64,000 nt of DNA from Candidatus Bathyanammoxibius amoris (GCA_024451685.1 JAMXCW010000006.1:5218-69217); one strand, 5' to 3'; shown: positions 9,780 to 42,570, numbered from the stretch's first letter. The notes: generated from the letters alone by a model not told the origin. Made by a program: numbers and translations.

Positions 9780-10523
9780 ATGTCCGGGGAACCTCTTATG
9801 GTTAATCATATCAATCAGAGAATGGCAGAGATACTAAAGGACACTGCCCTCTCACAAAAGAATTTTGCGGCTTCCCTGGGCCTTACGCCCGGGCATCTAA
9901 ACGACATCCTTCGAGACAGGACCCGCCCGACGGTCAGGATAGTCGAACAGTTGATACAGGCGTACAACGTCTCCGCCAACTGGTTACTGACAGGGAATGG
10001 TCCAAGGTATGGAGAAAGGCGGGCGGACTACCAGCAAAAGAGGATGGAGGTAGTCACCACAAAGGAACTTTTGTTAAGGGGCGGCAAATTCGGCAAGAGA
10101 GGGCATGACTTCGTAGCAGTACCCGTACTCGGCAGCGAGCTGGTGAGCAACCTGCCCAAGACCATCACCGACATAACAACCTTCAAACCGGAAGACTTCT
10201 GCGTAGTGCCTTATAAATGGATCAAGAGACCGAAGACCACATTCTGCTGCAAGGTTATGGGTACGTGCGTGGAACCACTGACGGACCATGAAATCATAGC
10301 CGCAGTGGATTGCTCCCTCAAATCTCCTTCACGCCTTAGCGGAAAACTCTGTGTAATCATGGTAGAACACATGCCCCTTATCCGCCGGCTCAACACCACA
10401 AAGACCCATCTTGTGTTCGAGACCATTAACCACCCGGACGCACCGAAACCCATCCGTTTCAAGGCCAATGGCACAAACCCCATACTCGGCAGGCTTGAGT
10501 GGACCTGCTGTCAACACAAATAA
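9780..10523 (+). CDS. XRE-type HTH repressor with a degenerate LexA/CI (S24)-like C-terminal domain
   Basis: N-terminal HTH: SQKNFAASLGLTPGHLNDILRDRTRPTVRIVEQLIQAYNVSANWLLTG. C-terminal VMGTCVEP and LIRRL sit where S24 proteins have GDSMEP and VKRL. Confidence 0.6.
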   Translation: MSGEPLMVNHINQRMAEILKDTALSQKNFAASLGLTPGHLNDILRDRTRPTVRIVEQLIQAYNVSANWLLTGNGPRYGERRADYQQKRMEVVTTKELLLRGGKFGKRGHDFVAVPVLGSELVSNLPKTITDITTFKPEDFCVVPYKWIKRPKTTFCCKVMGTCVEPLTDHEIIAAVDCSLKSPSRLSGKLCVIMVEHMPLIRRLNTTKTHLVFETINHPDAPKPIRFKANGTNPILGRLEWTCCQHK

Positions 10524-10603: not shown

Positions 10604-12073
10604 TCAACGTATTGACAACTTCAAAACCTCCTTGGTCTTTGGGGTGACCTTGACCCTCTCGTCTATCCGGAGTCCTACTACCCAGACGGGATGGGCTTTT
10701 GATGCAACGATAACCACGTTATCCCTCTCCCACCTGGGGGTCTTTGTGTCGATAAAAAAATCCTTAAGCTTCTTCTCGCCGCCCACGCCCAGGGGCCAGA
10801 ACCTGTCTCCATCCCTGCGGGTGCGGACGTAGAGTTTTTTGCCTGCCCTGTCGGCGTCCACAATCTCTTCATCGGGTGTTTTCCCGGTCTTAAACTTTTC
10901 GAGGAAGCCGTCCTCTATCTTTTCGTCAATAATCTCGGCCCTGATTTCCCTTCCGTCAAATAACTTTGTTATGCCCGGCACGACCAGCTCCACCGGCTCA
11001 AATGATTGCGTACGGGGGCGTGATGGCCCGGCAGTCTTCCTGAGGCAAAGCTCCTCGCCTTCGAGACACGCCGTCCATCGTCCCGGAAGTTCTATCTGTT
11101 TACACTCCGTGACGCCCTCCACCATCTCAATTACATTATTGTAGTGTTCGTAGTCCATCTTCCTGAGCGACATGCCCATCCTGGAAAAAACCTCTTTCAG
11201 AAAAAAATGTTGAAAGAAGGGGGGGTGGTGTTTCAGCAGGTCGGCCTCAAATGAACAGGTGCCGGCCTCGTCCCGTTTCAGGGTTGCTCCTACGATCGTG
11301 CTTATCCTTGATTGCAGGAAATCATTACTCCTGCCGGCGATGTCGCCCAGCTTTGTCAGGGCGTCTTTCATCCGCGGGTTGTAATCCTTCTCAAGCAGCG
11401 GGAGGAGTTCAAGCCGTATGCGGTTGCGCAGATTATTTTCGGGGCGCAGGTTGGAAGAATCGGTTCTATAATTCAGGGGCTTCTCCTTGAGATACGAAAG
11501 TATCTCCGCCCTCCAGACATGAAGCAGCGGTCTCACCAGCTTCACCTTCGAGCCCGGTGATATGGTTCGCAGCGGCCTTATGCCGCCCAGCCCCAGAAGA
11601 CCCGTGCCCCTTATGATGCGATGCAGCACGGTCTCCGCATTATCGTCGGCCGTATGACCCACGGCCACGTGTGTGGCCGAAACCTCCCGGGCCAACTCCT
11701 CAAAGAACTCATACCTTGCCCTCCTGGCCGCCGTCTCTATGGAACATCTCTCACGGGACGACAACCCACTTACGTCCACCTCCTTCACGGCACACTCAAG
11801 GCCCAGCGACCCGGCCAGGCCTCGCACAAAGCGCTCGTCCTCCCGGGATTCCCCGCCGCGGAGCATGTGGTTGACGTGGGCCACATGCAGCCCGCAACCC
11901 CACCCCGTTGATTTATTTAATTCCATAAGCACACTCAGCAGTGCTACTGAATCAGGCCCCCCGGAGACCCCGACTACGACACCGTCCCCCGGCTCCAACA
12001 GGCCGTAGTGTCTAATCGTATCTCTTACCCGATTTTCTAACTCTACAGTTTTCACGCCCAAAACCTCCCGCAA
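10604..12073 (-). CDS. tilS: tRNA(Ile)-lysidine synthase
   Basis: PP-loop VGVSGGPDS; a long TilS-type substrate-binding and C-terminal domain. The start may be GTG 12055 instead of TTG 12073. Confidence 0.85.
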   Translation of the reverse strand: MREVLGVKTVELENRVRDTIRHYGLLEPGDGVVVGVSGGPDSVALLSVLMELNKSTGWGCGLHVAHVNHMLRGGESREDERFVRGLAGSLGLECAVKEVDVSGLSSRERCSIETAARRARYEFFEELAREVSATHVAVGHTADDNAETVLHRIIRGTGLLGLGGIRPLRTISPGSKVKLVRPLLHVWRAEILSYLKEKPLNYRTDSSNLRPENNLRNRIRLELLPLLEKDYNPRMKDALTKLGDIAGRSNDFLQSRISTIVGATLKRDEAGTCSFEADLLKHHPPFFQHFFLKEVFSRMGMSLRKMDYEHYNNVIEMVEGVTECKQIELPGRWTACLEGEELCLRKTAGPSRPRTQSFEPVELVVPGITKLFDGREIRAEIIDEKIEDGFLEKFKTGKTPDEEIVDADRAGKKLYVRTRRDGDRFWPLGVGGEKKLKDFFIDTKTPRWERDNVVIVASKAHPVWVVGLRIDERVKVTPKTKEVLKLSIR

Positions 12074-12472: not shown

Positions 12473-13423
12473 ATGCGTAAGGTAACGACAATACTGCTAT
12501 TAACGGCCATAAGCATGTTCATGTGCAGTCCGTCCGTCCATGCCAAGCATGACATTACCAAAGACGACGCCATAGAACATTTCAACAAGGGCAATAAATT
12601 CTACAGCGCCGGCAAATATGACAATGCAATCGTAGAGTTCAACAAGGCCCTTGAACACAACGCCAATGACGCCTCTTCACTTTTTGGCCTGGGCAACTCC
12701 TACTTTCTCAAGAAGAATTACAAAAAGGCACTGGAGCACTACAATAAAGTGACCGCAATAAAACCAGACTACGCCAAAGTGCATTACGCCATGGGCCTGG
12801 CCCACCGAAGGCTGGGCAATAAGGATGAGGCGAAGAAGGAGTTTGAGAATTACAACACCTTAAGCAAGGGAGGAAAATCCCGCACGGCAAAAAAGGCAGG
12901 CAAGAAAGTCCGTCGTAAGGCAACCCGGGCCAAAGAAGAGGAGACGGAGGAAAGCAGGCAGCTTGAAGGCAGGAAATGGGAAAAGAAGCCTGCGGACAGG
13001 AAACTTGAAAGCAGGAAATGGGAGGACAAGCCTGCGGGCAGAAAACTTGAATCCAGGGCTTGGGACAAAAAACCGGGAGACAGACAACTGGAAAGCAGGG
13101 CGTGGACGGAAGATGGCTCTCGCACATCAAAGGATGGAGCGGAAAAGGAACGCCGTGACAAAAAGATAGCAGAAAAGGAAAGAAAAAGGATAGAGAAAGC
13201 GGCCGAAAAGCGATTTAAAAGGAAGGCCGCCAAAAAAGAGAAGTCTAAAAAAGAGGCGGCCAAGAAAAAGAAGGAAAAAAGGGGGGGTCTGAAAGCCATA
13301 TGGAACAGCTCACCTGTAGGCAAGATATTTGTGGGCCTCGTCGCATACACGCTTGTGGCACAGGTCTGGATAGCCCTCGTCGTACTGGTCTGCTTAATCT
13401 TCCTATGGAGGAGACGGCGGTAA
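12473..13423 (+). CDS. TPR-repeat protein with an internal 14-aa tandem repeat, a Lys-rich region and a C-terminal membrane anchor
   Basis: TPR consensus (YDNAIVEFNKALEHNANDASSLFGLGNSYFLKKNYKKALEHYNKV...), a signal-like N-terminus, and a C-terminal hydrophobic helix VGLVAYTLVAQVWIALVVLVCLIFLW. Confidence 0.65.
   Translation: MRKVTTILLLTAISMFMCSPSVHAKHDITKDDAIEHFNKGNKFYSAGKYDNAIVEFNKALEHNANDASSLFGLGNSYFLKKNYKKALEHYNKVTAIKPDYAKVHYAMGLAHRRLGNKDEAKKEFENYNTLSKGGKSRTAKKAGKKVRRKATRAKEEETEESRQLEGRKWEKKPADRKLESRKWEDKPAGRKLESRAWDKKPGDRQLESRAWTEDGSRTSKDGAEKERRDKKIAEKERKRIEKAAEKRFKRKAAKKEKSKKEAAKKKKEKRGGLKAIWNSSPVGKIFVGLVAYTLVAQVWIALVVLVCLIFLWRRRR
12959..13108 (+). repeat. About 3.5 tandem copies of a 42-nt (14-aa) coding repeat
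   Basis: QLEGRKWEKKPADR / KLESRKWEDKPAGR / KLESRAWDKKPGDR / QLESRAWTEDG. Confidence 0.8.
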
Positions 13424-13586: not shown

Positions 13587-13808
13587 ATGGCAGAGGTAAC
13601 CATATACGGGAAGGATGACTGTCCTTACACAACTGGCGCAAGAGACGACTACGCCGGGCGCGGCTTTTCCGTAAACTATATAAACGTAAAAGAGGAACCG
13701 CAGGCGATGAGCCGGATGTTGGAGCTTTCCTCTGGCCGAAGGGAGGTGCCGGTCATCGTGGAAGGAGAGAAGGTAACCGTCGGTTTTGGGGGCACCTGAG
13801 GGGTCTAG
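13587..13808 (+). CDS. Glutaredoxin/NrdH-like protein, candidate selenoprotein (TGA 13797-13799 read as Sec; ends ...GFGGT-U-G-V-stop)
   Basis: Thioredoxin-fold landmarks VTIYGKDDCPYT and VPVIVEGEKVTVGF. The in-frame TGA is followed by GGG GTC TAG, and a SECIS-like hairpin starts 15 nt after the TGA. Confidence 0.6.
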
Positions 13809-13814
13809 AGACCC

Positions 13815-13833
13815 TGCCGGTAGGTTACCGGCA
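13815..13833 (+). promoter_or_regulatory. Candidate bacterial SECIS hairpin
   Basis: Perfect 8-bp stem TGCCGGTA / TACCGGCA with a GGT apex, placed 15 nt after TGA 13797-13799. Confidence 0.45.
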
Positions 13834-13898
13834 ACTGGAGGCATTGGGGCCCGCCAAAGACAGTATTTACCAGACACGGCGGGGGAGGGAAACGATAC

Positions 13899-15101
13899 AT
13901 GAAAGAAGAAGTTGCCCCGGTACGGGAGGCCGCCGGGAGACCCGCAGAAAAATTCCAACTGCGGCTTTTATTCTGGGAAACAACCGCCGCATGTAACCTT
14001 GAGTGCATCCACTGCCGCAGGCTGGACGTCATGAAGGAATTGGCCAAGGACGACCTCAGCACCGAGGAGGCGTTCTCTTTTATAGACAACCTGGCAACCC
14101 TGGGCAGCCCGATACTGGTCCTGAGTGGCGGAGAACCCCTCTACCGTCCCGACATCTTCGAAATAGGCCGCTACGCGAGGTCCAGGGGTCTCAAGCTGGC
14201 CCTTGCGACCAACGGCACACTGGTTGATGAGCCCATTGCAAGGCAGATTGTAGACGCCGGGGTGCAGCGTGTAGCCATCAGCTTTGACGGCGCGGACGCA
14301 AAGACACATGACGAATTCCGAAAACTCCCCGGCTCGTTTGACCGGGCCACCGAGGGCTTTAAACACCTCAAAAAGCTCGGCATGAGCATGCAGGTAAACT
14401 CCACCATCGCAAAGCACAACGTCCACCAGCTCAGGGACATCTATAACCTGGCCGTCTCGCTTGGCGCAGACGCGCTTCATATATTTATGCTGGTGCCCGT
14501 GGGCTGTGGAGTAGAGATTGCCGAAGACATGATGCTGAGCGCCGAAAAGTATGAAGAAAGCCTGCACCTGTTCTACGACCTGGCAAGGGAGGCGAAGATT
14601 CAGACAAAGGCCACCTGTGCGCCACACTATTTCAGGATCGTAAGGGAGAAGGCGGCGGAGCTGGGGATGCCCAACGACCCTTCTATGACACCTGGGGGCA
14701 GACACTCAGGCGGTGGACACCCGGGAGGGCATCCGGGCGGTGGACACCCAGGTGGTGGACATCCCGGCAGCGCGCCGGGGGCAATGGCAGCCATAACCAG
14801 GGGGTGTCTTGCGGGAACCGGCGTATGTTTTGTGTCGCACAAGGGGGAGGTTTTCCCCTGCGGGTATCTCCCCGTCACCTCAGGCAACGTGCGCACAGAG
14901 AACCTTGTGGATATTTGGCACAACTCAAAGGTCTTCGCCCGGATGCGCAACGTGGACCTGCTCGGTGGAAAATGCGGGGCCTGCGAATATAAAAAGATAT
15001 GTGAGGGCTGCCGCGCGAGGGCGTTCTATGAGACCGGAGATTATATGGCAGAGGAACCTTATTGCATATACACCCCAAAGGCCCTGAGAAAGAAAGGTTA
15101 A
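13899..15101 (+). CDS. Radical SAM / SPASM-domain enzyme (AhbD/NirJ/PqqE-like)
   Basis: CNLECIHC (CxxxCxxC) after LLFWETTAACN. The C-terminal auxiliary-cluster Cys pattern is GKCGACEYKKICEGCRARA. It carries an unusual (G-G-G-H-P)n insert between the two domains. Confidence 0.8.
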   Translation: MKEEVAPVREAAGRPAEKFQLRLLFWETTAACNLECIHCRRLDVMKELAKDDLSTEEAFSFIDNLATLGSPILVLSGGEPLYRPDIFEIGRYARSRGLKLALATNGTLVDEPIARQIVDAGVQRVAISFDGADAKTHDEFRKLPGSFDRATEGFKHLKKLGMSMQVNSTIAKHNVHQLRDIYNLAVSLGADALHIFMLVPVGCGVEIAEDMMLSAEKYEESLHLFYDLAREAKIQTKATCAPHYFRIVREKAAELGMPNDPSMTPGGRHSGGGHPGGHPGGGHPGGGHPGSAPGAMAAITRGCLAGTGVCFVSHKGEVFPCGYLPVTSGNVRTENLVDIWHNSKVFARMRNVDLLGGKCGACEYKKICEGCRARAFYETGDYMAEEPYCIYTPKALRKKG

Positions 15102-15239
15102 TCAAAAGAAGGGGGTCCGCATGAGGGGTTGTGTCCCGGTTACCCTTCCACTACTCCTGCTGCTTTCACAGAAACCGGCCATGGCGGGGAGAGAGATTTT
15201 TTTCAATCTATCATCTATCCAAGACAAGGTGGAAATATA

Positions 15240-16247
15240 TTGCAAAAGACAGCCGCGCTGAGACGTTACAGGGACAATGCGCTTAAGACCGGTTATGTCT
15301 TCTTCAATGCCAAGGCCCTTATGACGGCAGCCAAGTTGGACATATTCAATCACATCGGTACGGGCAGTAAATCGCCGGATGAACTGGCAAGCTCCATGGG
15401 CGCCAGCAGCCACGGGACCAGGCTCCTTCTGGATGCCCTGGCCGGCATGGGTTACGTTAACAAAAAAGGGGGGCGCTACTCTAACACCCGCTGTGGCCGG
15501 GAGGTGTTCCTTGAGGGAAAAGATTACTATATCGGGGACATACTCCGCTTTCACGAGACCATGTGGGCGGGCTGGAGCGGCCTGGAGAAATCCATCCGAA
15601 CCGGAAGACCCGCGCAACGGCACGACATGTTTCAGGAAGACAAGGAGGAAACCCGTACGTTCATCATGGCCATGCACAACACCGCAATGGGCCACGCAGA
15701 GGATTTGGCCTCTCTCATGGACCTGAACGGGGCCAGAACACTCCTCGACGTAGGCGGCGGTCCCGGCACCTACTCTATATTCTTCTGTAAGGCCAACCCG
15801 CGGCTGAAGGCAACTATTTTTGACCTGCCCGGCACCCTGGAGGTAACGAAGGACGTTGTTTCCAGATACAAAATGTCCCGCAGGGTCACCCTGCAGGAAG
15901 GCGATTACAATGAGCAACTGCCAAAGGGCTTTGACACGGCATTCCTTTCCCATATCATCCACAGTGAAGGGCCGGAGGCCAATGCCGCTCTAATGAAGAG
16001 GATTTATGACACCCTGAACCCCGGTGGGAAGATAATAATCCAGGATTTTATATTAAAAGAGGATAAGACTCAACCCGGTTTTGCCTCTACCTTCGCCCTC
16101 TGTATGCTCGTTTTCACGGAGGAAGGCAGGACGTACTCTTTCGAAGAGATAAAGGCCTGGCTGAAGGACGCGGGTTTTAAGTCTGTTAAGTGGTCTCGAC
16201 GTTCGCTGCCCCGTGACATCTCCGTCGTAACGGCGCAGCGCAGCTAA
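15240..16247 (+). CDS. Family-2 O-methyltransferase (dimerisation domain plus class I SAM fold)
   Basis: LLDVGGGPGTYSI motif I; an N-terminal winged-helix/dimerisation-like region. The ORF is open from TTG 15129, but TTG 15240 has an AAGGTGGA Shine-Dalgarno at 7-nt spacing. Confidence 0.7.
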   Translation: MQKTAALRRYRDNALKTGYVFFNAKALMTAAKLDIFNHIGTGSKSPDELASSMGASSHGTRLLLDALAGMGYVNKKGGRYSNTRCGREVFLEGKDYYIGDILRFHETMWAGWSGLEKSIRTGRPAQRHDMFQEDKEETRTFIMAMHNTAMGHAEDLASLMDLNGARTLLDVGGGPGTYSIFFCKANPRLKATIFDLPGTLEVTKDVVSRYKMSRRVTLQEGDYNEQLPKGFDTAFLSHIIHSEGPEANAALMKRIYDTLNPGGKIIIQDFILKEDKTQPGFASTFALCMLVFTEEGRTYSFEEIKAWLKDAGFKSVKWSRRSLPRDISVVTAQRS

Positions 16248-16280
16248 AGCCATCTAATAAACAAAGAAAAGGGAATCAAC

Positions 16281-17144
16281 ATGATAAAAAGTATCCTTGC
16301 ACCACTTGACGGGTCTGAGGCGTCATTTTCCGCCCTTGCAAACGCCGTTGCGCTGGGGAAGGCTGCCGGGGCCGAGGTGCGCGGCCTTTTTGTGGTGGAC
16401 AAGTGGCGTTTCGTTTACGTCCCCACCTCGACGGCCATCGCCGGGGCAATAGGCGCGGCGCCGACCACCAACGTACCGCTGCCTCCTGAAGAGCTGGTTG
16501 AGGAAGAAAACCGTGCCGCGCTGGAGGAAAAAGGGATTAAGAATTGCTTTGACACCGAGTGCAAGGCCCAGGGCGTTAAAGGCACGTTTAAGGTGGTTCG
16601 TGGCGAGGTGGGTGAGCTGATAATCGAGGCGGCCAGGACGGTGGACCTGGTGGTTATCGGCCGTCGCGGTAAACACACCCGGAAGCCCGAGGCGCACACC
16701 CCCGGCTCGATAACCCTGGCCCTGCTCCACAAATCTGCGAGACCGGTCATGGTAGTGCCCGAGGGCACCCGGCGTGGCACACACATACTCGTCGCATACG
16801 ACGGCAGCGAGGCCTCTCAACGGGCCATAGAGGCCGGGGCAATGATCGCCGAGCTGCAGGCCTCAAAGACTATAGACGTCCTTACCGTAGTCGACAACCC
16901 GGAGGATGCGGCCGAACCCCAGCGGGAGGCCGGAGAATACCTGACTCCGCACGGGCTTAAGGCGTCCTTTTTCATGGAGTCCGGAAGGCCATGGGAGGCC
17001 ATCTCGGCACACGCAGGTAAGACAGACGCCGGGCTTATCGTGATGGGCGCCTTTGGGATGAACCGCATCAAGGAGTTGATTTTTGGAAGCACTACCCTGA
17101 ACGTACTCGAGAATGCGAAATGTCCCATTCTGCTCGTGGCGTAA
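16281..17144 (+). CDS. Tandem-domain universal stress protein (UspA family)
   Basis: Two Usp modules, each ending in G-x2-G-x9-G-S type motifs (VIGRRGKH..., VMGAFGMNRIKELIFGSTT). Confidence 0.75.
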   Translation: MIKSILAPLDGSEASFSALANAVALGKAAGAEVRGLFVVDKWRFVYVPTSTAIAGAIGAAPTTNVPLPPEELVEEENRAALEEKGIKNCFDTECKAQGVKGTFKVVRGEVGELIIEAARTVDLVVIGRRGKHTRKPEAHTPGSITLALLHKSARPVMVVPEGTRRGTHILVAYDGSEASQRAIEAGAMIAELQASKTIDVLTVVDNPEDAAEPQREAGEYLTPHGLKASFFMESGRPWEAISAHAGKTDAGLIVMGAFGMNRIKELIFGSTTLNVLENAKCPILLVA

Positions 17145-17198
17145 CTGCCGCAGCCGCTATACACCTAAGTTACATACACCGTCCATCTTATGAAAGCC

Positions 17199-17227
17199 TT
17201 GACACAAACAACGTAAACTGTTTTAAT
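17199..17227 (+). promoter_or_regulatory. Sigma70-like promoter TTGACA-N17-TTTAAT
   Basis: Read directly from the sequence, 60 nt upstream of ATG 17288. Confidence 0.35.
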
Positions 17228-17287
17228 TCTTGCTTCAAAAGCTTTAAGTCATAAATCCAGACAATCACCAGACACCGGGATTTCTTA

Positions 17288-18772
17288 ATGAACATACTAC
17301 TTCTAAGTATGCCGGATTCTTTTCCCTTCCTGTTGCAGTGGGGCGTAAAGGTCCCATGCCTCGGCCTGACATCGATCGCCACCAACCTCTCTGAAGGCCA
17401 CAACGTTTATGTGGGAGACCTGTGCACTAAGAGAGACGACGTGCCGGGGGCCGTCAGGGACGCAATAGAGGAGTATAAACCCCATCTTGTGGGGATTTCC
17501 TCAATGACCTTCCAGTACAACACCGCCAAGAAGATAGCACGGCTCATAAAGGGCATGAATAAGGACATAAAACTGGCCCTGGGCGGCTACCATGCCACAC
17601 TCATGTCCCCGGAACTCAAGACCGAAGATGACAGCAAGTTATTCGATTTCTCCGGCGAGGACGGCCGGCTGTTCGACTTCGTGGTAAGGGGTGAGGGAGA
17701 GGTCAACTTCCGTGAGCTTGTAGACGCCATGGACGGGGGGAACAAGGACTTTAATTCCATCATGGGGCTGTCATACAGGTCCAACGGCGAGTGGCACCAT
17801 AACGCCCAAAGACCCCTTCTGGACGTAAAGACCATAAAATTGGCCAAAAGGTCAACGAGGATATGGAATGACTACAGCTACTGGGGCTACAACTTTGACA
17901 CCACTGAGAGTTCCAGGGGCTGCACCTTTACCTGCAACTTCTGCAGCATGCAACACATGTACGGCACCTCATTCAGGACCTTTGACATCTCAAGGGTGAT
18001 GGAGGACCTTGAAGACGTCAAGAGCGTGAAGGGCAATATCGTCCTGTTTATAGACGACAACATCACCCTGAACCCGAAAAGATTTTTGGAAATCTGCGAG
18101 GCGATGATTAAGGAAAAACATAATGACATTTACTACTGGGCGCAGGTGAGCTCCAAGGGTATCGCCTCCGTGCCGGAACTCTCAAAGGCCATGAAGGCCG
18201 CCGGTTTTAAGATGGTCTTCCTGGGGATAGAGAACGTCTCAAAGCGCAACCTTGAGCAGCTCAACAAGGGAGACATATTAGAATACAGCAAGAAGGCCAT
18301 AAAATACCTCCATGACGCCGGGTTAATCGTAATCGGCGGGATGATCGTCGGCAACCCTGAGGACACAGTCGCGGACCTTGAGGAGAACTTCGAATTCTTT
18401 AAAGACCAGGGCATAGACGTATACTTCGACCAGATACTGACCCCGTACCCTAAGACAGGGATAAGGGAAGAACTCATGAAGGCCGGCCTTGTCACAAATC
18501 CTTACGATTTCACGAAATATAACGGATATTGGACCAATGTAAGGACAAAACACCTCTCGGAAGACGAGCTCTCCTTTCTCAGATGGAAGTTGCACCGCGA
18601 CTACTTCGTGCTCGCCAGTCCCTCACCCCTGTACAGAAAATATATGGGAGCAGGCTACTACTACAGGAACTACAAAATCTTCAGAAAGAGGCTGGGCGCC
18701 TGGTGGAACACAGAACGGAAGGTTTACGAGCAGGAGATGGAGAAATACCGGAAGGTAAACGAATTTTTGTAG
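17288..18772 (+). CDS. B12-binding-domain radical SAM protein (class B), paralog 1
   Basis: N-terminal cobalamin-binding-like Rossmann segment (HLVGISSMTFQYNTAKKIARLIK), then ESSRGCTFTCNFCS (CxxxCxxC). Confidence 0.8.
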   Translation: MNILLLSMPDSFPFLLQWGVKVPCLGLTSIATNLSEGHNVYVGDLCTKRDDVPGAVRDAIEEYKPHLVGISSMTFQYNTAKKIARLIKGMNKDIKLALGGYHATLMSPELKTEDDSKLFDFSGEDGRLFDFVVRGEGEVNFRELVDAMDGGNKDFNSIMGLSYRSNGEWHHNAQRPLLDVKTIKLAKRSTRIWNDYSYWGYNFDTTESSRGCTFTCNFCSMQHMYGTSFRTFDISRVMEDLEDVKSVKGNIVLFIDDNITLNPKRFLEICEAMIKEKHNDIYYWAQVSSKGIASVPELSKAMKAAGFKMVFLGIENVSKRNLEQLNKGDILEYSKKAIKYLHDAGLIVIGGMIVGNPEDTVADLEENFEFFKDQGIDVYFDQILTPYPKTGIREELMKAGLVTNPYDFTKYNGYWTNVRTKHLSEDELSFLRWKLHRDYFVLASPSPLYRKYMGAGYYYRNYKIFRKRLGAWWNTERKVYEQEMEKYRKVNEFL

Positions 18773-18858
18773 TTGGCCATCTGGGGAAACATTCGCGCAA
18801 ATACCAACAAAACGATACATCTCAAAATTGAAAGACTTTACTTGAGGACCGAGACATC

Positions 18859-20343
18859 ATGAATGTACTCCTTCTAAGTATGCCGGACTTTATCCCGCTT
18901 ATATTCAGAAAGAATATAAAGGTACCCAACCTCGGCATGACGTCGGTGGCCTCCAACGTTTCTGAAGGCCACAACGTCTACGTGGGAGACCTCTGCACCA
19001 GAAGAGACGACATACCCGGGGCCGTCCGTGACGCAATAGATAAGTATAAACCTGACCTTGTGGGCCTGTCATCAATGACCTTTCAGTACATCACCGCCAA
19101 GAAGATTGCGCGCCTCGTAAGGGGTATGAACAAGGACATCAAACTGGCCCTGGGCGGCTACCACGCCTCGCTCATGTCCCCGGAAACCAGAAGCGATGAC
19201 GACAGTAAACTATTCGACTTCTCCGGCGAGGACGGCCGACTATTCGACTTCATGATAAGGGGCGAGGGTGAAGAAACCTTCCGCGAGCTGATAGACACCC
19301 TGGACGGGGGGCGCAAGGACTTTGATTCCATCCTGGGGTTGTCGTTCAGGAGTAACGGCGAGTGGCGCCACAACGACCGAAGGCCCCTTCTCGACGTAAG
19401 GGCCATAAAACCGCCAGACAGATCGAAGAGGATATGGAAGGACTACAATGCTTTTTTCCACAAATTTGATGTCGTCGAGAGCTCAAGGGGCTGCACCTTT
19501 ACCTGCAACTTCTGCAGCATACACCACATGTACGGTACCACCTTCAGGACCTACGACATCTCCAGGGTGATAGAAGACCTCGAAGACATCCGGAAGGCGG
19601 GGGGCAACATGGTGGGATTCATAGACGACAACATTACCCTGAACCCGAAAAGGTTTACGGAACTCTGCCGGGCAATAACCAGAGAAGGCTATAACGACAT
19701 GAACTACTGGGCCCAGGTAAGCTGCAAGGGTATCGCCTCCACGCCCGAACTCTCAAAGGCCATGCGTGACGCAGGATTCATGGTTGTCTTCCTGGGTATA
19801 GAGAGCGCCTCAAAGCGCACCCTGGAGCGGCTCAACAAGGGAGACATATTAGAATACAGCAAGAAAGCCATAAAATACCTCCATGACGCCAATATATTAA
19901 TAATCGGTGGGATGATCGTCGGAAACCCTGACGATACATGCGAGGATGTCAGGGAAAACTACGAGTTCTTCAGGGAATACGGCGTAGATGCCTACCTGGA
20001 CCAGATGCTGACCCCATACCCCAAAACGGGGATAAGGAAAGAACTTATGGATGCCGGCCTCGTGACAAACCCCTACGATTTCGCAAAATACAACGGATTC
20101 TGGGTCAATGTCAGGACAAAACACATCCCGGCAGATGAGCTCTCCTTTCTCAGATGGAAGCTCCACCGTGAATTTTTCCTGATGGCGGAACCATCACCCA
20201 TATACCGGAAACTGATGGGCCCGGGCTATTACTACAGGAAGTATAAGATCTTCAGGAAGAAGCTGGATGTCTGGTGGAAGACGGAAAGGAAGGCATACGA
20301 AGAGGACATGGAGAAGTTCCGCAAGGTAAACGAATACCTGTAG
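18859..20343 (+). CDS. B12-binding-domain radical SAM protein (class B), paralog 2
   Basis: Same length (494 aa) and collinear with 17288-18772, with roughly three quarters of residues identical by eye and the same ESSRGCTFTCNFCS motif. Confidence 0.8.
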   Translation: MNVLLLSMPDFIPLIFRKNIKVPNLGMTSVASNVSEGHNVYVGDLCTRRDDIPGAVRDAIDKYKPDLVGLSSMTFQYITAKKIARLVRGMNKDIKLALGGYHASLMSPETRSDDDSKLFDFSGEDGRLFDFMIRGEGEETFRELIDTLDGGRKDFDSILGLSFRSNGEWRHNDRRPLLDVRAIKPPDRSKRIWKDYNAFFHKFDVVESSRGCTFTCNFCSIHHMYGTTFRTYDISRVIEDLEDIRKAGGNMVGFIDDNITLNPKRFTELCRAITREGYNDMNYWAQVSCKGIASTPELSKAMRDAGFMVVFLGIESASKRTLERLNKGDILEYSKKAIKYLHDANILIIGGMIVGNPDDTCEDVRENYEFFREYGVDAYLDQMLTPYPKTGIRKELMDAGLVTNPYDFAKYNGFWVNVRTKHIPADELSFLRWKLHREFFLMAEPSPIYRKLMGPGYYYRKYKIFRKKLDVWWKTERKAYEEDMEKFRKVNEYL

Positions 20344-20356: not shown

Positions 20357-22111
20357 TTAATTGACTGTCTCTACCTCGCACTCACACTCAAGCGCAAGGG
20401 CCTGGGATATCCGGCTCTTATCCCTGTAGATGGTTATCCCCTTGCATCTGCTCTCGTAGGCAAGCATAAACGTCTTTTCCACCTCCTTCTTTGACGTGGC
20501 GGAAGAGAAATTTATGGTCTTCGATACCGCATTGTCCGTGTACTTCTGAAACGCCGCCTGCATCCTGACGTGCCACTCCGCGGGGATGTCCCTGGCGGTC
20601 ACAAAGACCCGTTTTGTCCCGTCGGGTATGTAAGGGATAGACTGGATGGAACCCTCTTTTGAGATTTCTTCCATAAGCCTGTCGGAGTAAAACCCCTCCC
20701 GGTGCGCCGTCTCAACAAACAAATCGTAGACCTCAGGGATAAACTCCTCGTCCAGGATGCGCCTGCCGAAGGAAAAGGCGAATATCGGCTCTATACCGCT
20801 GGAGCAACCGGCTATGATGCTGATGGTGCCGGTCGGGGCGATAGTGGTGCGGGAGACGTTTCTGTAGCGGGGCCCGCCCGCTTTATCGTATATACTCCGC
20901 GAGAAGTTGGGGAATACACCCCGCTTTTCCGCCCGCTCGATTGACGCGGCGTTGGCCTCACCGGAGAAGAACTTCATCAACTCCTCAGCCGCACCAAGGG
21001 CCTCTTCAGAATCATAAGGAATGCCCATCTTCACCAGCATGTCGGCAAAGCCCATGACACCAAGCCCTATCTTCCTGTTGCCCTTGCTCATCTCCTCAAC
21101 CTGCGGCAGCGGATACTTATTTACGTCTATGACGTTGTCAAGGAAGTACAGCCCCCATCTTATAACTTCCCTGAGCCTGTCCCAGTCAACTCCGGGTCTT
21201 TTACCGTCACCGTCCTTCAACATCCCGGAGAGATTCACCGAACCCAGCACGCAGGACTCGTACGGCAGGAGCGGTTGCTCGCCGCACGGGTTTGTGCTCT
21301 CTATTGCGCCCAGCTCAGGGGTAGGGTTAGAGGCGTTTATGGTATCAAGGAAGAGTATCCCCGGCTCGCCCGTCTTCCACGCCTCCTCCACAAGCCTGTC
21401 AAAGACCTCTCTGGCCCTGAGCTTCTTCACCGTCTTCCCCGTGCGGGGATTAATGAGCCCATATTCCCCGTCATCCTCCACCGCCTTCATGAAGGCATCC
21501 GTCACACCCACAGAGACGTTGAAGTTGGTAAGGACTCCCTGACGGTTCTTACAATCTATGAATTCCAGTATGTCGGGGTGTGTAACGTGGAGGACGGCCA
21601 TGTTGGCGCCCCGGCGGAATCCGCCCTGGTTAATGACCTCCGTGGCCTCGTTGAATATCCTGATAAAGGAGACCGGGCCGCTGGCGGGCCCCCCTGAGGT
21701 GCTGACTATATCATTCTTCGGCCTGAGTCTGGAAAAGGAAAACCCCGTCCCCCCTCCGCTCTGGTGGATGAGGGCGGAAAACTTTACCATGTCGAATATA
21801 TGCTCGATAGAATCCTCCACGGGCAGCACAAAACACGCCGCCAACTGCTGGAGCCTCCTGCCGGCGTTCATAAGCGTGGGCGAGTTGGGCAGGAACTCGA
21901 GCCTCGACATCATACCGTAAAAGGCCGCTTCAGCCTCCCGGGGGTCCTCCCCGTAAAGGGCGTTCGCGCCGGCCGCATTGCGGGCCACCCGCCTGAACAT
22001 CTCCTCCGGAGACTCTATACAGCGGCCCTGCCCGTCCTTCCTCAGGTACCTCTTCTTTAGTATCAGCAGACCTGTTGGAGATAGTTCTATTTTCTCGGAC
22101 TTTTTTCCCAT
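20357..22111 (-). CDS. nrdJ: Adenosylcobalamin-dependent (class II) ribonucleotide reductase
   Basis: Active-site TNPCGEQPL, N-terminal LKKRYLRKD, single-chain size of about 585 aa. The ORF is open to TTG 22129; ATG 22111 (MGKKSEK...) is the preferred start. Confidence 0.85.
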   Translation of the reverse strand: MGKKSEKIELSPTGLLILKKRYLRKDGQGRCIESPEEMFRRVARNAAGANALYGEDPREAEAAFYGMMSRLEFLPNSPTLMNAGRRLQQLAACFVLPVEDSIEHIFDMVKFSALIHQSGGGTGFSFSRLRPKNDIVSTSGGPASGPVSFIRIFNEATEVINQGGFRRGANMAVLHVTHPDILEFIDCKNRQGVLTNFNVSVGVTDAFMKAVEDDGEYGLINPRTGKTVKKLRAREVFDRLVEEAWKTGEPGILFLDTINASNPTPELGAIESTNPCGEQPLLPYESCVLGSVNLSGMLKDGDGKRPGVDWDRLREVIRWGLYFLDNVIDVNKYPLPQVEEMSKGNRKIGLGVMGFADMLVKMGIPYDSEEALGAAEELMKFFSGEANAASIERAEKRGVFPNFSRSIYDKAGGPRYRNVSRTTIAPTGTISIIAGCSSGIEPIFAFSFGRRILDEEFIPEVYDLFVETAHREGFYSDRLMEEISKEGSIQSIPYIPDGTKRVFVTARDIPAEWHVRMQAAFQKYTDNAVSKTINFSSATSKKEVEKTFMLAYESRCKGITIYRDKSRISQALALECECEVETVN

Positions 22112-22290
22112 AACACGATTCTCACACAACCCTCAACTACATAGTGTAGCGATGCCGGATATAAATGTCTATATGTTGTATGCTTGAAAATGCAACGGAC
22201 AAAGACACGAGGGTTTTCCAAGGAAGACGTCGCTCTATCTGAGAAATGATAAGGAGAGGTAAGGGTAAGGTGGGTTCTCAAGTAAAGAGG

Positions 22291-29932: not shown

Positions 29933-30201
29933 ATCACCTTATCGGAGTCAAAGATGAGCTTAATCATCTCATCATAATCAATCGAAGGATACGGCAACTC
30001 TACGGCCCGGGCCGCGGCGTCGTCCTTTAACACCATAGTCTTCAGCCCTTTAAGGCGGTCTTCCGCGGTCAACACCGCGTCATGTATGAGTAACACGGCC
30101 AGATGACCGTCCCCTGCCGCGGAGTTTTTGCCGGCCTGGTCAACGGCCGTCGAGATGGCAAGCGCGTGGTCCTTTTCTTTGATTACGTGGAGCGTCTTCA
30201 T
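29923..30201 (-). CDS. DsrH/TusB-like protein
   Basis: 92 aa, ending ...SDKVICW, third in a DsrE/F/H-sized trio. It overlaps the polyferredoxin start by 10 nt. Confidence 0.55.
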   Translation of the reverse strand: MKTLHVIKEKDHALAISTAVDQAGKNSAAGDGHLAVLLIHDAVLTAEDRLKGLKTMVLKDDAAARAVELPYPSIDYDEMIKLIFDSDKVICW

Positions 30202-30202
30202 G

Positions 30203-30553
30203 TTATTGCCAGGGTATTACCCTGTCCGCGTTCGCAAGCATTTCTATTACCCGTTCACCGGGTAATATCTCAGCCTCTGCACCTAATTCGTTGATACCCC
30301 TTTTCTCAAGAGATTCCTTCTCCGCCACCACCCTGTGCCCGAGGAGCCGCAGGGCGTCCAGATGTTTATATATTATTCCCGACTCTATCAGCCCGGGGTC
30401 TGTCCTGCGGAGCAGGTGCACGCCGTCGCCCATGAACAAGACCGTTACCTTATTGTCTTCCTCCAGGGTAAGGCCCACCGACATGCGAAGCCCCTCCGAA
30501 TTTCTGAGCGTGTTGAACGGGGGCCTATGTATTATAACGACCACGTCTGCCAT
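30203..30553 (-). CDS. DsrF/TusC-like protein
   Basis: DsrE-family fold landmarks (VVVIIHRPPFNTLRNSEGLRMSVGL, VLFMGDGV). There is a 1-nt gap to the dsrH-like start. The ORF is open to TTG 30577. Confidence 0.55.
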   Translation of the reverse strand: MADVVVIIHRPPFNTLRNSEGLRMSVGLTLEEDNKVTVLFMGDGVHLLRRTDPGLIESGIIYKHLDALRLLGHRVVAEKESLEKRGINELGAEAEILPGERVIEMLANADRVIPWQ

Positions 30554-30618
30554 AAGATTTTGCCGTCTAAAGAACAATTGTGTATCGAGTGGGGGGGGCT
30601 GCCGGATTGCTCCTGAAA

Positions 30619-30927: not shown

Positions 30928-30972
30928 GTCGTTCTCTCAATACGGGTTATCGCCGTCTTCGCATTGCTCTCT

Positions 30973-31001
30973 ATAATAACACCGAACCCAAACGTAGTCA
31001 A
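30973..31001 (-). promoter_or_regulatory. Sigma70-like promoter TTGACT-N17-TATTAT (read on the minus strand)
   Basis: Located about 45 nt upstream of the dsrE-like start and downstream of a GC-rich hairpin that follows folC. Confidence 0.4.
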
Positions 31002-42512: not shown

Positions 42513-42570
42513 CAAAGGACGAGAGCATCCAGCACAAGCTTGTCATTGCGAGCGAAAGCGAAGCAATCTC
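42487..42570. repeat. Hairpin/inverted-repeat element (CGCAATGACA ... TGTCATTGCG plus ATTGCGAGCGAAAGCGAAGCAAT)
   Basis: 10-bp inverted-repeat arms at 42505-42514 and 42541-42550, plus an adjacent ATTGC/GCAAT stem. Confidence 0.6.

What the first reader, a model, noticed from the sequence alone, without database searches (positions are those of the whole stretch)
13587..20343. Same-strand redox/radical-SAM cluster: Sec-glutaredoxin-like, rSAM-SPASM, O-methyltransferase, tandem Usp, two B12-rSAM paralogs
Six consecutive plus-strand genes are separated by gaps of about 90, 138, 33, 143 and 86 nt, with a sigma70-like promoter in the 143-nt gap. The set combines three radical-SAM enzymes (one SPASM type, two cobalamin-dependent class B, the class that typically methylates unactivated carbons) with an O-methyltransferase and a small thiol/selenol redox protein. 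No heme (ahbABC), PQQ or known RiPP precursor genes are adjacent, so the product is not obvious. One option is tailoring of a lipid, hopanoid or cofactor. A more speculative option is that the SPASM enzyme acts on the flexible C-terminal tail (GGT-U-G-V) of the upstream small protein, by analogy with SPASM maturases that modify the C-termini of small precursors such as mycofactocin MftA.
Basis: inference. Interest (0 to 1): 0.55.

Follow-up and report, generated by a model that had tools for sequence, protein, structure and literature searches.

The report
Mixed heme and radical-SAM gene row
The six genes are real, but they look like a lineage-specific row of separate units in an early-branching anammox bacterium: a selenoprotein next to the heme b synthase AhbD, a stress gene, and a conserved methyltransferase plus B12 radical-SAM pair whose product is unknown.

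Summary
All six plus-strand genes, their spacing and their domain types are confirmed. The contig comes from an early-branching anammox lineage (class Brocadiia, closest to Bathyanammoxibiaceae).

- **g1** is a member of the curated UXX-star selenoprotein family 1. Its TGA-x-Val-stop ending and a SECIS-like hairpin are conserved in five genomes.
- **g2** is not an orphan SPASM maturase. It is an AhbD-type heme b synthase, scoring 453-461 bits against a cut-off of 500. A 66%-identical Scalindua homologue scores 508 and passes. Anammox bacteria are reported to carry ahbABCD.
- **Synteny.** The full six-gene order survives only in close relatives, where the flanking housekeeping genes are collinear too. 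In the next family out, the Usp gene and the second rSAM copy are absent, and g1/AhbD remain in only one of seven loci. Only the O-methyltransferase followed by the B12-rSAM stays adjacent, in 12 of 12 informative loci.
- **g5 and g6** belong to an uncharacterised class-B rSAM family. Every sampled anammox locus falls into three clades of it, and several genomes carry more than one clade. They are not BchE, HpnR or the ladderane-cluster rSAM (TIGR04072).

The single-pathway reading and the idea that the SPASM enzyme modifies the selenoprotein tail are poorly supported. The product of the methyltransferase/B12-rSAM pair remains unknown.

The parts
13587..13808 (+). g1: glutaredoxin-fold UXX-star selenoprotein. 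N-terminal CPYT motif. The C-terminus is GFGGT-U(TGA 13797-13799)-G-V, followed by the true stop TAG at 13806-13808.
   Evidence: NF041114 scores 110.2 bits against a cut-off of 72. TGA-x-Val-stop is conserved in L002, L003, L004 and L007, with synonymous changes in the Val codon and in the stop codon.
13815..13833 (+). SECIS-like hairpin: TGCCGGTA / GGT loop / TACCGGCA. It begins 15 nt after the UGA and lies in the 3' untranslated region.
   Evidence: The 8-bp stem is conserved in five orthologous loci with a GGN loop. Two pairs keep pairing through changes on both sides. The single-sequence fold gives the same stem, but the z-score of the 54-nt stretch is only -1.55. No Rfam family matches.
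13899..15101 (+). g2: radical-SAM/SPASM enzyme of the AhbD (heme b synthase) type.
   Evidence: TIGR04545 scores 452.6 bits (cut-off 500). With the linker insert removed it scores 460.6 bits and covers profile positions 1-339. The next-best family, NirJ2, scores 342. The Scalindua homologue (66% identical) scores 507.6 and passes.
14701..14761 (+). 15-nt tandem repeat (4.3 copies) encoding a (GGHPG)n linker between the rSAM core and the SPASM domain of g2.
   Evidence: Tandem Repeats Finder. A His/Gly/Pro-rich linker of variable length is present in L001-L005, a shorter Pro/Gly-rich one in L007, and none in Scalindua.
15240..16247 (+). g3: class I SAM-dependent O-methyltransferase (Methyltransf_2 plus dimerisation domain). 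His241 is invariant.
   Evidence: Pfam. His241 is invariant across 16 homologues. Best solved relative is DsyB at 154 bits. It lies immediately upstream of the clade A B12-rSAM in 12 of 12 informative loci.
16281..17144 (+). g4: tandem universal stress protein, inserted between the OMT and the rSAM.
   Evidence: Pfam Usp, two stretches. Present only in L001-L005. Absent from L007-L011 and L013; L012 is too truncated upstream to tell.
17199..17227 (+). Sigma-70-like site: TTGACA, 17 nt, TTTAAT, upstream of g5.
   Evidence: Read directly from the sequence. Not listed by the scanning tool. Function untested.
17288..18772 (+). g5: cobalamin-binding (class B) radical SAM enzyme, clade A of a family found in every sampled anammox lineage.
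   Evidence: Pfam B12-binding plus Radical_SAM. Cys212, Cys216 and Cys219 (CxxxCxxC) are invariant. Best curated family is BchE at 155 bits against a cut-off of 481. The AlphaFold model matches AprD4, TsrM, MgmA and OxsB with TM-scores of 0.56-0.64.
18859..20343 (+). g6: paralogue of g5 (73% identical), a lineage-restricted tandem duplicate.
   Evidence: The duplicate is present in L001, L002, L005 and L006, and absent in L003 and L004.

Best explanation
The row is a lineage-specific juxtaposition of separate functional units in an early-branching anammox genome. It is not one biosynthetic pathway.

**Unit 1: g1 and g2.**
- g2 is the organism's AhbD. It would carry out the last step of siroheme-dependent heme synthesis, the radical oxidative decarboxylation of the two propionates of Fe-coproporphyrin III to give heme b.
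- g1 is a small glutaredoxin-fold protein. It is read through a UGA as selenocysteine three residues from its end, directed by a hairpin in the 3' untranslated region.
- Whether g1 serves AhbD is unknown.

**Unit 2: g3 with g5 and g6.**
- This is the only part conserved across families. [quoted passage not shown]
- I infer that the rSAM enzyme(s) functionalise an unactivated C-H bond of a small hydrophobic metabolite. Methyl transfer through methylcobalamin is most likely. A BchE-like oxygen-independent oxidation is the alternative.
- The methyltransferase then caps a hydroxyl or carboxyl group. The substrate is not known.

**Unit 3: g4.** A recently inserted stress-protein gene.

**Shown:** family assignments, the selenocysteine recoding signals and the synteny pattern.
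**Inferred:** the enzymatic steps and the independence of the units.
For: - **g1.** NF041114 scores 110 bits against a cut-off of 72. UGA-x-Val-stop and the hairpin are conserved, with compensatory changes.
- **g2.** AhbD is the best family by more than 100 bits. The Scalindua homologue, 66% identical over its best aligned segment, passes the equivalog cut-off. ahbABCD is reported as part of the anammox gene set (PMC9387917).
- **Synteny.**
  - The full set occurs only in L002-L005, where the flanks are collinear too.
  - In L007-L013 only the OMT-to-B12 order persists. In L010 the two called ORFs overlap by 4 nt.
  - Usp occurs only in L001-L005.
  - The g6 copy occurs only in four loci.
  - g1 and AhbD are absent from the roughly 5-9 kb available upstream in L008, L009, L011 and L013.
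- **The B12-rSAM family.** It forms three clades (A, B, C). Every one of the 78 genome loci retrieved is from Brocadiia or from a MAG labelled only Planctomycetota or Planctomycetia. The host lineages are described as anammox bacteria.
- **Independent recurrence of the pairing.** OMT homologues sit next to unrelated B12-rSAMs in L104, L124 and L079.
- **Own promoter.** The sigma-70-like site in the g4-g5 gap is consistent with separate transcription of g5 and g6.
Against: - All six genes are on one strand with short gaps, and no terminator-like site falls in any gap between them. Co-transcription of some or all cannot be excluded.
- g1-AhbD-(c5)-OMT-B12 adjacency also survives in one more distant genome, L007. 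The association is therefore older than the closest relatives.
- g2 falls just short of the AhbD equivalog cut-off, even without its insert.
- The three best curated matches (AhbD, BchE, BchU) are all enzymes that act on tetrapyrroles. That could hint at a shared substrate class.
- No substrate evidence of any kind was obtained for the OMT/B12-rSAM pair.
Confidence: 0.6

Rival explanations
1. One tetrapyrrole-tailoring pathway. AhbD makes heme b, or acts on a related iron porphyrin. The BchE-like B12-rSAMs and the BchU-like methyltransferase then modify the macrocycle to give a lineage-specific modified heme.
For: - The best curated matches are all tetrapyrrole enzymes: AhbD at 453 bits, BchE at 155 and 147 bits, and BchU at 74.6 bits.
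- g1-AhbD-c5-OMT-B12 are adjacent in Bathyanammoxibiaceae and in L007.
- A 43%-identical OMT homologue in a Leptospirillia genome starts 4 nt after a gene of Pfam family UPF0093 (PF03653). From my own knowledge that family is the protoporphyrinogen oxidase HemJ.
- Anammox bacteria depend heavily on heme (PMC9387917).
Against: - The BchE and BchU scores are far below their cut-offs of 481 and 276. They are typical of generic similarity within class B rSAMs and within Methyltransf_2.
- The best solved relative of the OMT is DsyB, not a tetrapyrrole enzyme.
- AhbD is not near the OMT/B12 pair in L008, L009, L011 or L013.
- The UPF0093 adjacency occurs in one genome only among 85 OMT loci.
- In Scalinduaceae the OMT is not next to a B12-rSAM or AhbD.
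Confidence: 0.12
2. The OMT/B12-rSAM pair, and the wider B12-rSAM expansion in anammox bacteria, modify membrane or envelope lipids. Possibilities are mid-chain methylation of alkyl chains, a step in ladderane formation, or modification of a lipopolysaccharide component.
For: - The Brocadiia clades form one group. Its nearest relatives among the 50%-identity representatives are 40-47% identical proteins of mostly unknown origin.
- Cobalamin-dependent rSAM enzymes are the standing candidates for ladderane ring formation, and a separate, still undiscovered pathway has been proposed (PMC2649909, PMC10139942, PMC13459092).
- In two metagenome loci, OMT homologues sit next to rSAMs that match TIGR04072, the 'lipid biosynthesis B12-binding/radical SAM' family, at 279 and 362 bits.
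- Outgroup homologues lie between lpxB and lptD (Planctomycetes bacterium DG_58) and next to an LPG-synthase-type membrane protein.
- From inspection of the sequences, kdsB and a LolA-like gene flank related loci. A PfkB plus cytidylyltransferase-like gene, which I read as hldE, follows the Scalindua OMT.
- In Brocadiaceae the family sits in a conserved array with proteins that carry signal-peptide-like or lipoprotein-like N-termini (by inspection).
Against: - g5 and g6 score only 81 and 84 bits to TIGR04072 (cut-off 360), so they are not the ladderane-cluster enzyme.
- No fatty-acid-synthesis, ACP or hopanoid genes were recognised among the recurrent neighbour clusters in 78 loci.
- The envelope-gene neighbours were noticed after the fact and are few.
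- Clade A and its OMT are absent from Brocadiaceae, which do make ladderanes. Clade A therefore cannot be essential for ladderanes.
Confidence: 0.15
3. The SPASM enzyme g2 is a peptide maturase that modifies the C-terminal GGT-U-G-V tail of g1, as MftC modifies MftA.
For: - The g1-g2 adjacency, with a gap of 90-190 nt, is conserved in L002-L004 and L007, and a truncated g1 end lies just upstream of AhbD in L005.
- g2 has a SPASM domain.
- g1 ends in a Gly-rich tail that carries selenocysteine.
Against: - g2 aligns end to end with the AhbD model at 461 bits, against 173 bits for the mycofactocin maturase (cut-off 265) and 146 bits for PqqE.
- The 66%-identical Scalindua protein passes as AhbD. 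No g1-like gene was found in the 380-590 nt available upstream of it.
- g1 is a folded 72-residue glutaredoxin-type protein from a curated selenoprotein family (NF041114; PMC13188914). It is not a leader-plus-core peptide.
Confidence: 0.03

Closest known systems
AhbD, heme b synthase (NCBIfam TIGR04545), the last step of the siroheme-dependent heme pathway
   Same: g2 matches the whole profile (positions 1-339). It has the rSAM CxxxCxxC motif and a Cys-rich SPASM region. It is 66% identical to a Scalindua protein that passes the equivalog cut-off.
   Different: It scores 453-461 bits, below the cut-off of 500. It carries a lineage-specific (GGHPG)n linker insertion. No ahbA/B/C lies within the 64-kb window.
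UXX-star selenoprotein family 1 (NCBIfam NF041114), the 'distant Grx-like protein 1' of PMC13188914
   Same: Glutaredoxin fold and a C-terminal U-x-x-stop. It passes the family cut-off.
   Different: The review lists the family with two selenocysteines and a UxxT motif. Here the N-terminal motif is CPYT, with Cys in that position, so the protein has only one selenocysteine.
BchE and other cobalamin-dependent (class B) radical SAM enzymes (TIGR02026; solved examples TsrM, MgmA, OxsB, TokK, CysS; AprD4 shares the fold)
   Same: An N-terminal B12-binding domain followed by a radical SAM barrel with CxxxCxxC. The predicted fold matches these structures with TM-scores of 0.56-0.64.
   Different: BchE scores 155 and 147 bits against a cut-off of 481. 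Sequence identity to any solved enzyme is 14-17%. No curated subfamily cut-off is reached. The genomic context is unrelated to photosynthesis.
Ladderane-cluster B12-binding radical SAM protein (TIGR04072; Kuste2803-type)
   Same: A B12-rSAM present in anammox bacteria.
   Different: g5 and g6 score 81 and 84 bits against a cut-off of 360. No amxACP, FabZ, FabF or phytoene-dehydrogenase genes were recognised as neighbours.
DsyB/DSYB MTHB S-methyltransferase, and the Methyltransf_2 O-methyltransferases (BchU, RedM, CalO6)
   Same: Same two-domain fold (dimerisation plus Rossmann). DsyB is the best solved match, at 154 bits and roughly 30% identity.
   Different: By my hand-count on the alignment, the DsyB substrate residues Tyr97 and Gln101 are replaced by Ile101 and His105. 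The OMT has an invariant His241 that DsyB lacks at the aligned position.
   Same: A SPASM-domain rSAM encoded next to a small protein with a Gly-rich C-terminus.
   Different: g2 scores 164-173 bits to the MftC model (cut-off 265), against 453-461 bits to AhbD. g1 is a folded redox protein, not a precursor peptide.

Membership tests
[quoted passage not shown] | Profile score above the curated cut-off | tested here: met
   110.2 bits against a cut-off of 72.
[quoted passage not shown] | In-frame UGA two codons before the true stop, conserved in orthologues | tested here: met
   TGA-x-GTN-stop in five of five orthologues, with synonymous variation in the Val codon and the stop codon.
[quoted passage not shown] | A SECIS element able to direct selenocysteine insertion | tested here: inconclusive
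   A conserved 8-bp hairpin with a GGN loop lies 15-18 nt after the UGA, with compensatory changes. No Rfam model matches. No tRNA-Sec lies in the window, and selA/selB/selD were not searched for and were not recognised among the annotated genes. Insertion itself was not tested.
[quoted passage not shown] | Second selenocysteine in the N-terminal UxxT motif, as listed in PMC13188914 | tested here: not met
   The motif is CPYT, with Cys, in all five orthologues. This is a Cys variant at that position.
AhbD heme b synthase (TIGR04545) | Equivalog profile score of at least 500 bits | tested here: not met
   452.6 bits as encoded and 460.6 bits with the insert removed. The shortfall is narrow. The Scalindua homologue scores 507.6.
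AhbD heme b synthase (TIGR04545) | Closer to AhbD than to NirJ, AhbC or peptide-maturase SPASM families | tested here: met
   AhbD 461 bits, NirJ2 342, TIGR04053 333, AhbC 188, MftC 173.
AhbD heme b synthase (TIGR04545) | rSAM CxxxCxxC motif plus a SPASM auxiliary-cluster cysteine region | tested here: met
   CNLECIHC is present, and the C-terminal CGACEYKKICEGC...C region is conserved across orthologues. Pfam reports a SPASM hit.
AhbD heme b synthase (TIGR04545) | Genome also encodes ahbA/B/C | not testable with these tools
   None in the 64-kb window. The rest of the genome is not available. The literature reports ahbABCD in anammox bacteria (PMC9387917).
AhbD heme b synthase (TIGR04545) | Converts Fe-coproporphyrin III to heme b | not testable with these tools
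   Needs an enzyme assay.
Class B (cobalamin-dependent) radical SAM enzymes | N-terminal B12-binding domain plus a radical SAM core with CxxxCxxC | tested here: met
   PF02310 plus PF04055 in g5 and g6. Cys212, Cys216 and Cys219 are invariant. The predicted fold matches TsrM, MgmA, OxsB and TokK.
BchE (TIGR02026) | Equivalog score of at least 481 bits | tested here: not met
   155 bits and 147 bits.
Ladderane-cluster B12 rSAM (TIGR04072) | Equivalog score of at least 360 bits, and a FASII-like neighbourhood (amxACP, FabZ, FabF, PDH) | tested here: not met
   81 and 84 bits. No such neighbours were recognised in 78 loci.
Hopanoid methylase HpnR and HpnJ (HpnP has no separate model among the hits) | Equivalog score above the cut-off | tested here: not met
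   HpnR 92 and 88 bits against 650. HpnJ 100 and 92 bits against 578.
DsyB MTHB S-methyltransferase | Conserved MTHB-binding residues (Tyr97, Gln101, Tyr129, Tyr142, Gln146, His291; PMC10989797) | tested here: not met
   By my hand-count on the alignment, Tyr97 aligns to Ile101 and Gln101 aligns to His105. Identity is roughly 30%. The other four residues were not mapped.
Methyltransf_2 O-methyltransferases | Dimerisation domain, SAM-binding Rossmann domain with a GxGxG motif, and a general-base His | tested here: met
   PF08100 plus PF00891. D170, G172, G174, G176 and H241 are invariant in 16 homologues. That H241 corresponds to the plant OMT general base is my reading from memory, not a test.
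MftC-type or PqqE-type peptide maturase | Profile score above the cut-off, and a cognate precursor peptide | tested here: not met
   MftC 164-173 bits against 265. PqqE 143-146 bits against 381. The neighbouring protein is a folded glutaredoxin-type protein.

The most novel reading that the evidence does not exclude
The B12-rSAM family to which g5 and g6 belong was found in every sampled anammox lineage, as three clades, and several genomes carry more than one clade. In early-branching lineages it is linked to an O-methyltransferase. In Brocadiaceae it is linked to a DUF362/ferredoxin protein, MgtE, a TPR protein and small envelope-type proteins. This family could be part of the long-sought 'separate' radical pathway that builds or tailors the anammox-specific membrane lipids (ladderanes or their relatives), distinct from the FASII-cluster rSAM studied so far.
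Probability: 0.07. Interest if true: 0.85.

Novelty: new member of a known kind. Interest (0 to 1): 0.3.

Why it matters
**As a six-gene cluster, it matters little.** It resolves into a known selenoprotein family, the heme b synthase that is expected in anammox bacteria, a stress protein, and an uncharacterised methyltransferase/B12-rSAM pair.

**The useful residue is comparative.**
- An uncharacterised class-B radical SAM family is present in all sampled anammox families.
- Clade A, which includes g5 and g6, is strictly coupled to an O-methyltransferase in Bathyanammoxibiaceae and Hypogeohydataceae.
- Anammox bacteria cannot be manipulated genetically, and their ladderane biosynthesis is unsolved. 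A defined and compact two-gene module is therefore a reasonable target for heterologous expression.

**Annotation point.** An in-frame UGA two codons before the stop, and a repeat insertion inside AhbD, can make routine pipelines truncate g1 and leave g2 unnamed.

Tried and rejected
- **RNA searches.** Rfam at gathering threshold over the whole window found nothing. At E <= 10 around g1 it gave only chance hits. There is no cobalamin riboswitch and no catalogued SECIS family. ARAGORN found no tRNA and no tRNA-Sec in the window.
- **DsyB identity of the OMT: rejected.** The two substrate-binding residues I mapped by hand differ, and an invariant His is present that DsyB lacks at the aligned position.
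- **Ladderane-cluster rSAM (TIGR04072), HpnR/HpnJ, PhpK, BchE: rejected.** All score far below their cut-offs.
- **Neighbourhoods of 85 OMT homologues from metagenomes and long contigs.**
  - The only recurrent neighbour was a generic sensor-kinase family.
  - The UPF0093 (HemJ, from my own knowledge) adjacency is confined to one Leptospirillia genome.
  - B12-rSAM adjacency was seen in two loci, and with a different rSAM family.
- **Outgroup contexts of the rSAM family.** They gave only weak hints of an envelope or lipopolysaccharide link. The other recurrent neighbours, judged by inspection of their sequences, are housekeeping genes.
- **Structure prediction plus Foldseek.** This confirmed the class-B architecture but gave no specific functional match.
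- **The small secreted-type protein 'c5'.** It sits next to the OMT in relatives and has no Pfam or NCBIfam match.

Full report
**Observation.**

The ORF list shows seven consecutive plus-strand genes between minus-strand tilS (10604-12073) and minus-strand nrdJ (20357-22129). They are a TPR protein (12473-13423) followed by the six genes of the finding.

With the TTG start at 15240 for the methyltransferase and the true stop of g1 at 13808, the intergenic gaps are 90, 138, 33, 143 and 86 nt, as reported. Pfam confirms every domain call:
- g1: Glutaredoxin.
- g2: Radical_SAM plus SPASM.
- g3: Methyltransf_2 plus Dimerisation.
- g4: Usp in two stretches.
- g5 and g6: B12-binding plus Radical_SAM.

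g5 and g6 are 73% identical.

The sigma-70-like site is in the sequence: TTGACA at 17199-17204, a 17-nt spacer, and TTTAAT at 17222-17227. The scanning tool omits it because it requires A at position 2 of the -10 hexamer. No terminator-like site falls in any of the intergenic gaps between the six genes.

**Origin.**

The exact proteins lie on a 191-kb metagenome scaffold, ENA ERZ23499028, 'ZHAO22-1'.
- The closest homologues of g5 (70-78% identical) come from MAGs labelled Brocadiales or Planctomycetota. One is Ca. Avalokitesvara rifleensis, family Bathyanammoxibiaceae.
- The 61-62% tier includes Ca. Tripitaka californicus and 'Brocadiia bacterium JP1', family Hypogeohydataceae.
- Both families are described as early-branching anammox bacteria that carry the core anammox genes (bioRxiv 10.1101/2023.04.27.538623).
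- That the window itself is from a Bathyanammoxibiaceae genome is an inference from these identities.

**g1 is a known kind of selenoprotein.**

It scores 110.2 bits to NCBIfam NF041114, 'UXX-star selenoprotein family 1' (cut-off 72).
- In the window and in four orthologous loci, the reading frame ends GFGGT or GYGGT, then TGA, one variable codon, a Val codon (GTC, GTA or GTG), and a stop (TAG, TAA or TGA). This is the pattern expected if the UGA is translated.
- An 8-bp hairpin with a GGN loop starts 15-18 nt after the UGA and is conserved. Two of its pairs keep pairing through changes on both sides.
- The hairpin lies in the 3' untranslated region because only two codons follow the UGA.
- Rfam has no matching model.
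- The family is listed in a 2026 review as having two selenocysteines (UxxT plus the tail), with a suggested metal-binding or unknown role (PMC13188914). Here the N-terminal motif is CPYT, so only the tail residue would be selenocysteine.

**g2 is AhbD-type.**

- The best NCBIfam model is TIGR04545, heme b synthase, at 452.6 bits in two stretches (cut-off 500).
- The split is caused by a 15-nt tandem repeat at 14701-14761. It encodes (GGHPG)n between the rSAM core and the SPASM domain.
- With the insert removed, the protein aligns end to end with the profile at 460.6 bits. That is still just under the cut-off, but far above NirJ2 (342), TIGR04053 (333), AhbC (188), the mycofactocin maturase (173) and PqqE (146).
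- The Scalindua homologue, 66% identical over its best aligned segment, lacks the insert and scores 507.6, passing the equivalog cut-off.
- No ahbA/B/C lies in the window. The other rSAM gene in the window, at 42580-43722, is LipS2-like and sits next to a lipoate ligase.

**Synteny.**

A profile of g5 homologues retrieved 78 loci from one-genome-per-species contigs. All are from Brocadiia or from MAGs labelled only Planctomycetota or Planctomycetia. Mapping the window's proteins onto them gave three tiers.
- **Close relatives (L002-L005).**
  - The order is g1, AhbD, OMT, Usp, B12-rSAM. The flanking tilS, TPR, nrdJ, sigma-54 regulator and kinase genes are conserved too, so this is general collinearity.
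  - The second rSAM copy is present in L001, L002, L005 and L006, but not in L003 or L004.
- **The 61-62% tier (L007-L013).**
  - Usp and the second rSAM copy are absent wherever the locus extends far enough upstream to judge.
  - g1 and AhbD remain in L007 only, and are absent from the roughly 5-9 kb available upstream in L008, L009, L011 and L013.
  - The OMT is still immediately upstream of the rSAM in every locus that extends far enough, 12 of 12 in all. In L010 the two called ORFs overlap by 4 nt.
- **Brocadiaceae and Scalinduaceae.** The related rSAMs (43-48% identical) have no adjacent OMT.

A neighbour-joining tree separates clade A, which is OMT-linked and found only in early-branching lineages, from clades B and C. 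Several early-branching MAGs have clade A and also a tandem B-C pair followed by a DUF362/ferredoxin gene and mgtE.

In Brocadiaceae, clade C heads a conserved same-strand array: B12-rSAM, DUF362/Fer4, MgtE, c9, TPR, c10, c5, c8.

The small protein c5 has a signal-peptide-like N-terminus and no Pfam or NCBIfam match.
- It also sits directly upstream of the OMT in L002, L003, L004, L007, L009 and L010.
- It is fragmented into two pieces in L005.
- It is deleted in the window.

**The OMT.**

- Its best solved relative is DsyB/DSYB at 154 bits and roughly 30% identity. RedM and natural-product O-methyltransferases follow.
- By my hand-count on that alignment, the DsyB substrate residues Tyr97 and Gln101 (PMC10989797) align with Ile101 and His105.
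- The OMT keeps an invariant His241 in an IIHSE motif that DsyB lacks. From memory, this corresponds to the general base of Methyltransf_2 O-methyltransferases, so an O-directed activity is the more likely.
- Homologues of 48-51% identity occur in Scalinduaceae, and of 39-47% in Omnitrophica, Dadabacteria, Nitrospirota and Leptospirillia.
- Their neighbourhoods (three look-ups plus 80 metagenome loci) share nothing recurrent except sensor kinases.
- Two metagenome loci place an OMT homologue next to a B12-rSAM of a different family, TIGR04072 'lipid biosynthesis B12-binding/radical SAM' (279 and 362 bits). L079 pairs a 30%-identical OMT with a divergent rSAM. The OMT plus class-B rSAM pairing therefore recurs independently.
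- One Leptospirillia genome has the OMT homologue 4 nt downstream of a gene of Pfam family UPF0093, which I know as HemJ. This was not seen elsewhere.

**The B12-rSAMs.**

- No curated family is reached: BchE 155/147 bits (cut-off 481), PhpK 123/133 (600), HpnJ 100/92 (578), HpnR 92/88 (650), and TIGR04072 81/84 (360).
- The CxxxCxxC cysteines are invariant.
- The AlphaFold model has a mean pLDDT of 74.6 and a pTM of 0.79. It matches AprD4, TsrM, MgmA, OxsB, CysS and TokK with TM-scores of 0.56-0.64 at 14-17% identity. The architecture is class B, but nothing more specific can be said.
- An exhaustive search of 50%-identity representatives found only 630 proteins at E <= 1e-30. The best of them (about 240-430 bits) are 36-47% identical to the sampled Brocadiia members, apart from a few that exceed 50%. 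In a tree, the Brocadiia clades group together, with P0241 and P0246 nearest and P0245 inside.
- Relatives of the nearest outgroup lie next to an LPG-synthase-type membrane protein. In Planctomycetes bacterium DG_58 the homologue lies between lpxB and lptD. These are weak, after-the-fact hints of an envelope or lipid connection.

**Mechanism.**

The best-supported reading is a row of separate units.
- AhbD completes heme b synthesis.
- The adjacent selenoprotein is a thiol/selenol redox or metal-binding protein of unknown partner.
- The Usp gene is a recent insertion.
- The OMT plus B12-rSAM pair is a conserved tailoring module.

For that module I infer two steps.
- **Step 1.** Radical functionalisation of an unactivated C-H bond. 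Methylation is most likely, as for most class-B enzymes. An oxygen-independent oxidation or ring closure, as in BchE, OxsB and HpnJ, is the alternative (PMC13598231).
- **Step 2.** O-methylation.

The substrate is unknown. Three rivals are kept with stated probabilities:
- A shared tetrapyrrole substrate. Its support is that the three best curated matches are all enzymes acting on tetrapyrroles.
- A lipid or envelope substrate.

**Comparison and novelty.**

Every component belongs to a known kind.
- g1 is a member of a curated selenoprotein family, as a Cys variant at the first site.
- g2 is an AhbD-type enzyme just below the equivalog cut-off, with an unusual His/Gly/Pro linker.
- g3 is a Methyltransf_2 enzyme.
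- g5 and g6 are members of an uncharacterised class-B subfamily.

What is not in the literature I could search is this rSAM family itself, and the strict OMT coupling of clade A. Published ladderane candidates concern the FASII-cluster rSAM (PMC2649909, PMC10139942, PMC13459092), and g5/g6 are not that enzyme.

The most novel reading not excluded is that this family takes part in anammox-specific lipid chemistry. I give that about 7%.

**Verdict.**

Interest is low to moderate at 0.3. The cluster as such is ordinary and composite, but the OMT/B12-rSAM module is a compact and testable unknown in a lineage whose signature lipid pathway is unsolved.

Noticed in passing
window 14701-14761 (inside g2): A 15-nt tandem repeat (4.3 copies) encodes GGHPG repeats in the linker between the rSAM core and the SPASM domain of the AhbD-type enzyme. 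A His/Gly/Pro-rich linker of variable length is present in the Bathyanammoxibiaceae-level orthologues, a shorter Pro/Gly-rich one in L007, and none in Scalindua. Its role is unknown. It lowers the family score and splits the match in two.
   Followed up: partly
window 15102-15239; L002 7352-7942, L004 7315-7905, L005 1364-1733: In relatives a roughly 196-residue protein ('c5') with a signal-peptide-like N-terminus and no Pfam or NCBIfam match sits between AhbD and the OMT, overlapping or almost abutting the OMT start. It is deleted in the window and broken into two fragments in L005. The same protein family sits in the Brocadiaceae rSAM array.
   Followed up: partly
L021 9941-17419, and likewise L022, L028, L041, L052 and L054: Brocadiaceae, including Kuenenia and Jettenia MAGs, share a same-strand array: B12-rSAM (clade C), DUF362/4Fe-4S protein, MgtE, c9, TPR protein, c10 (membrane), c5, c8 (lipoprotein-like coiled coil). 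In Scalindua an extra twitch/SPASM rSAM lies between DUF362 and MgtE. The function is unknown.
   Followed up: partly
L104 6049-8674; L124 5632-8225: In two unrelated metagenome contigs, a 38%-identical homologue of the OMT lies next to a B12-rSAM that matches TIGR04072, the 'lipid biosynthesis B12-binding/radical SAM' family (279 and 362 bits). No fatty-acid-synthesis genes were recognised nearby.
   Followed up: partly
L085 7574-8990: In a Leptospirillia MAG, a 43%-identical OMT homologue starts 4 nt after a gene of Pfam family UPF0093 (PF03653), which I know as the protoporphyrinogen oxidase HemJ. A siroheme-type sulfite/nitrite reductase gene lies 2 kb downstream. Seen in this genome only.
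   Followed up: yes
window 41673-43722: A lipoate-protein ligase-like gene is followed by a radical SAM gene that best matches the LipS2 family of lipoyl synthases, at 188 bits (below the cut-off of 270).
   Followed up: no
window 44000-46100: GC content drops to 0.42, against about 0.53 elsewhere, over a region that encodes an N6/N4 DNA methyltransferase and a MutH-like endonuclease. This may be an acquired restriction-modification island.
   Followed up: no
window 10-765 and 9780-10523: A tyrosine recombinase (Xer-like, sub-threshold) lies at the window start. A LexA-like HTH plus peptidase S24 repressor lies upstream of tilS.
   Followed up: no
window 27452-31000: An 826-residue polyferredoxin with NapG/NapH-like segments and DUF6599 is followed by three small DsrE/DsrH-like genes on the minus strand.
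   Followed up: no
window 15931-15958: The strongest sigma-70-like match in the region (TTGACA, 16 nt, TATCAT; 11 of 12 positions) lies inside the OMT coding sequence on the plus strand. Its significance is unknown.
   Followed up: no
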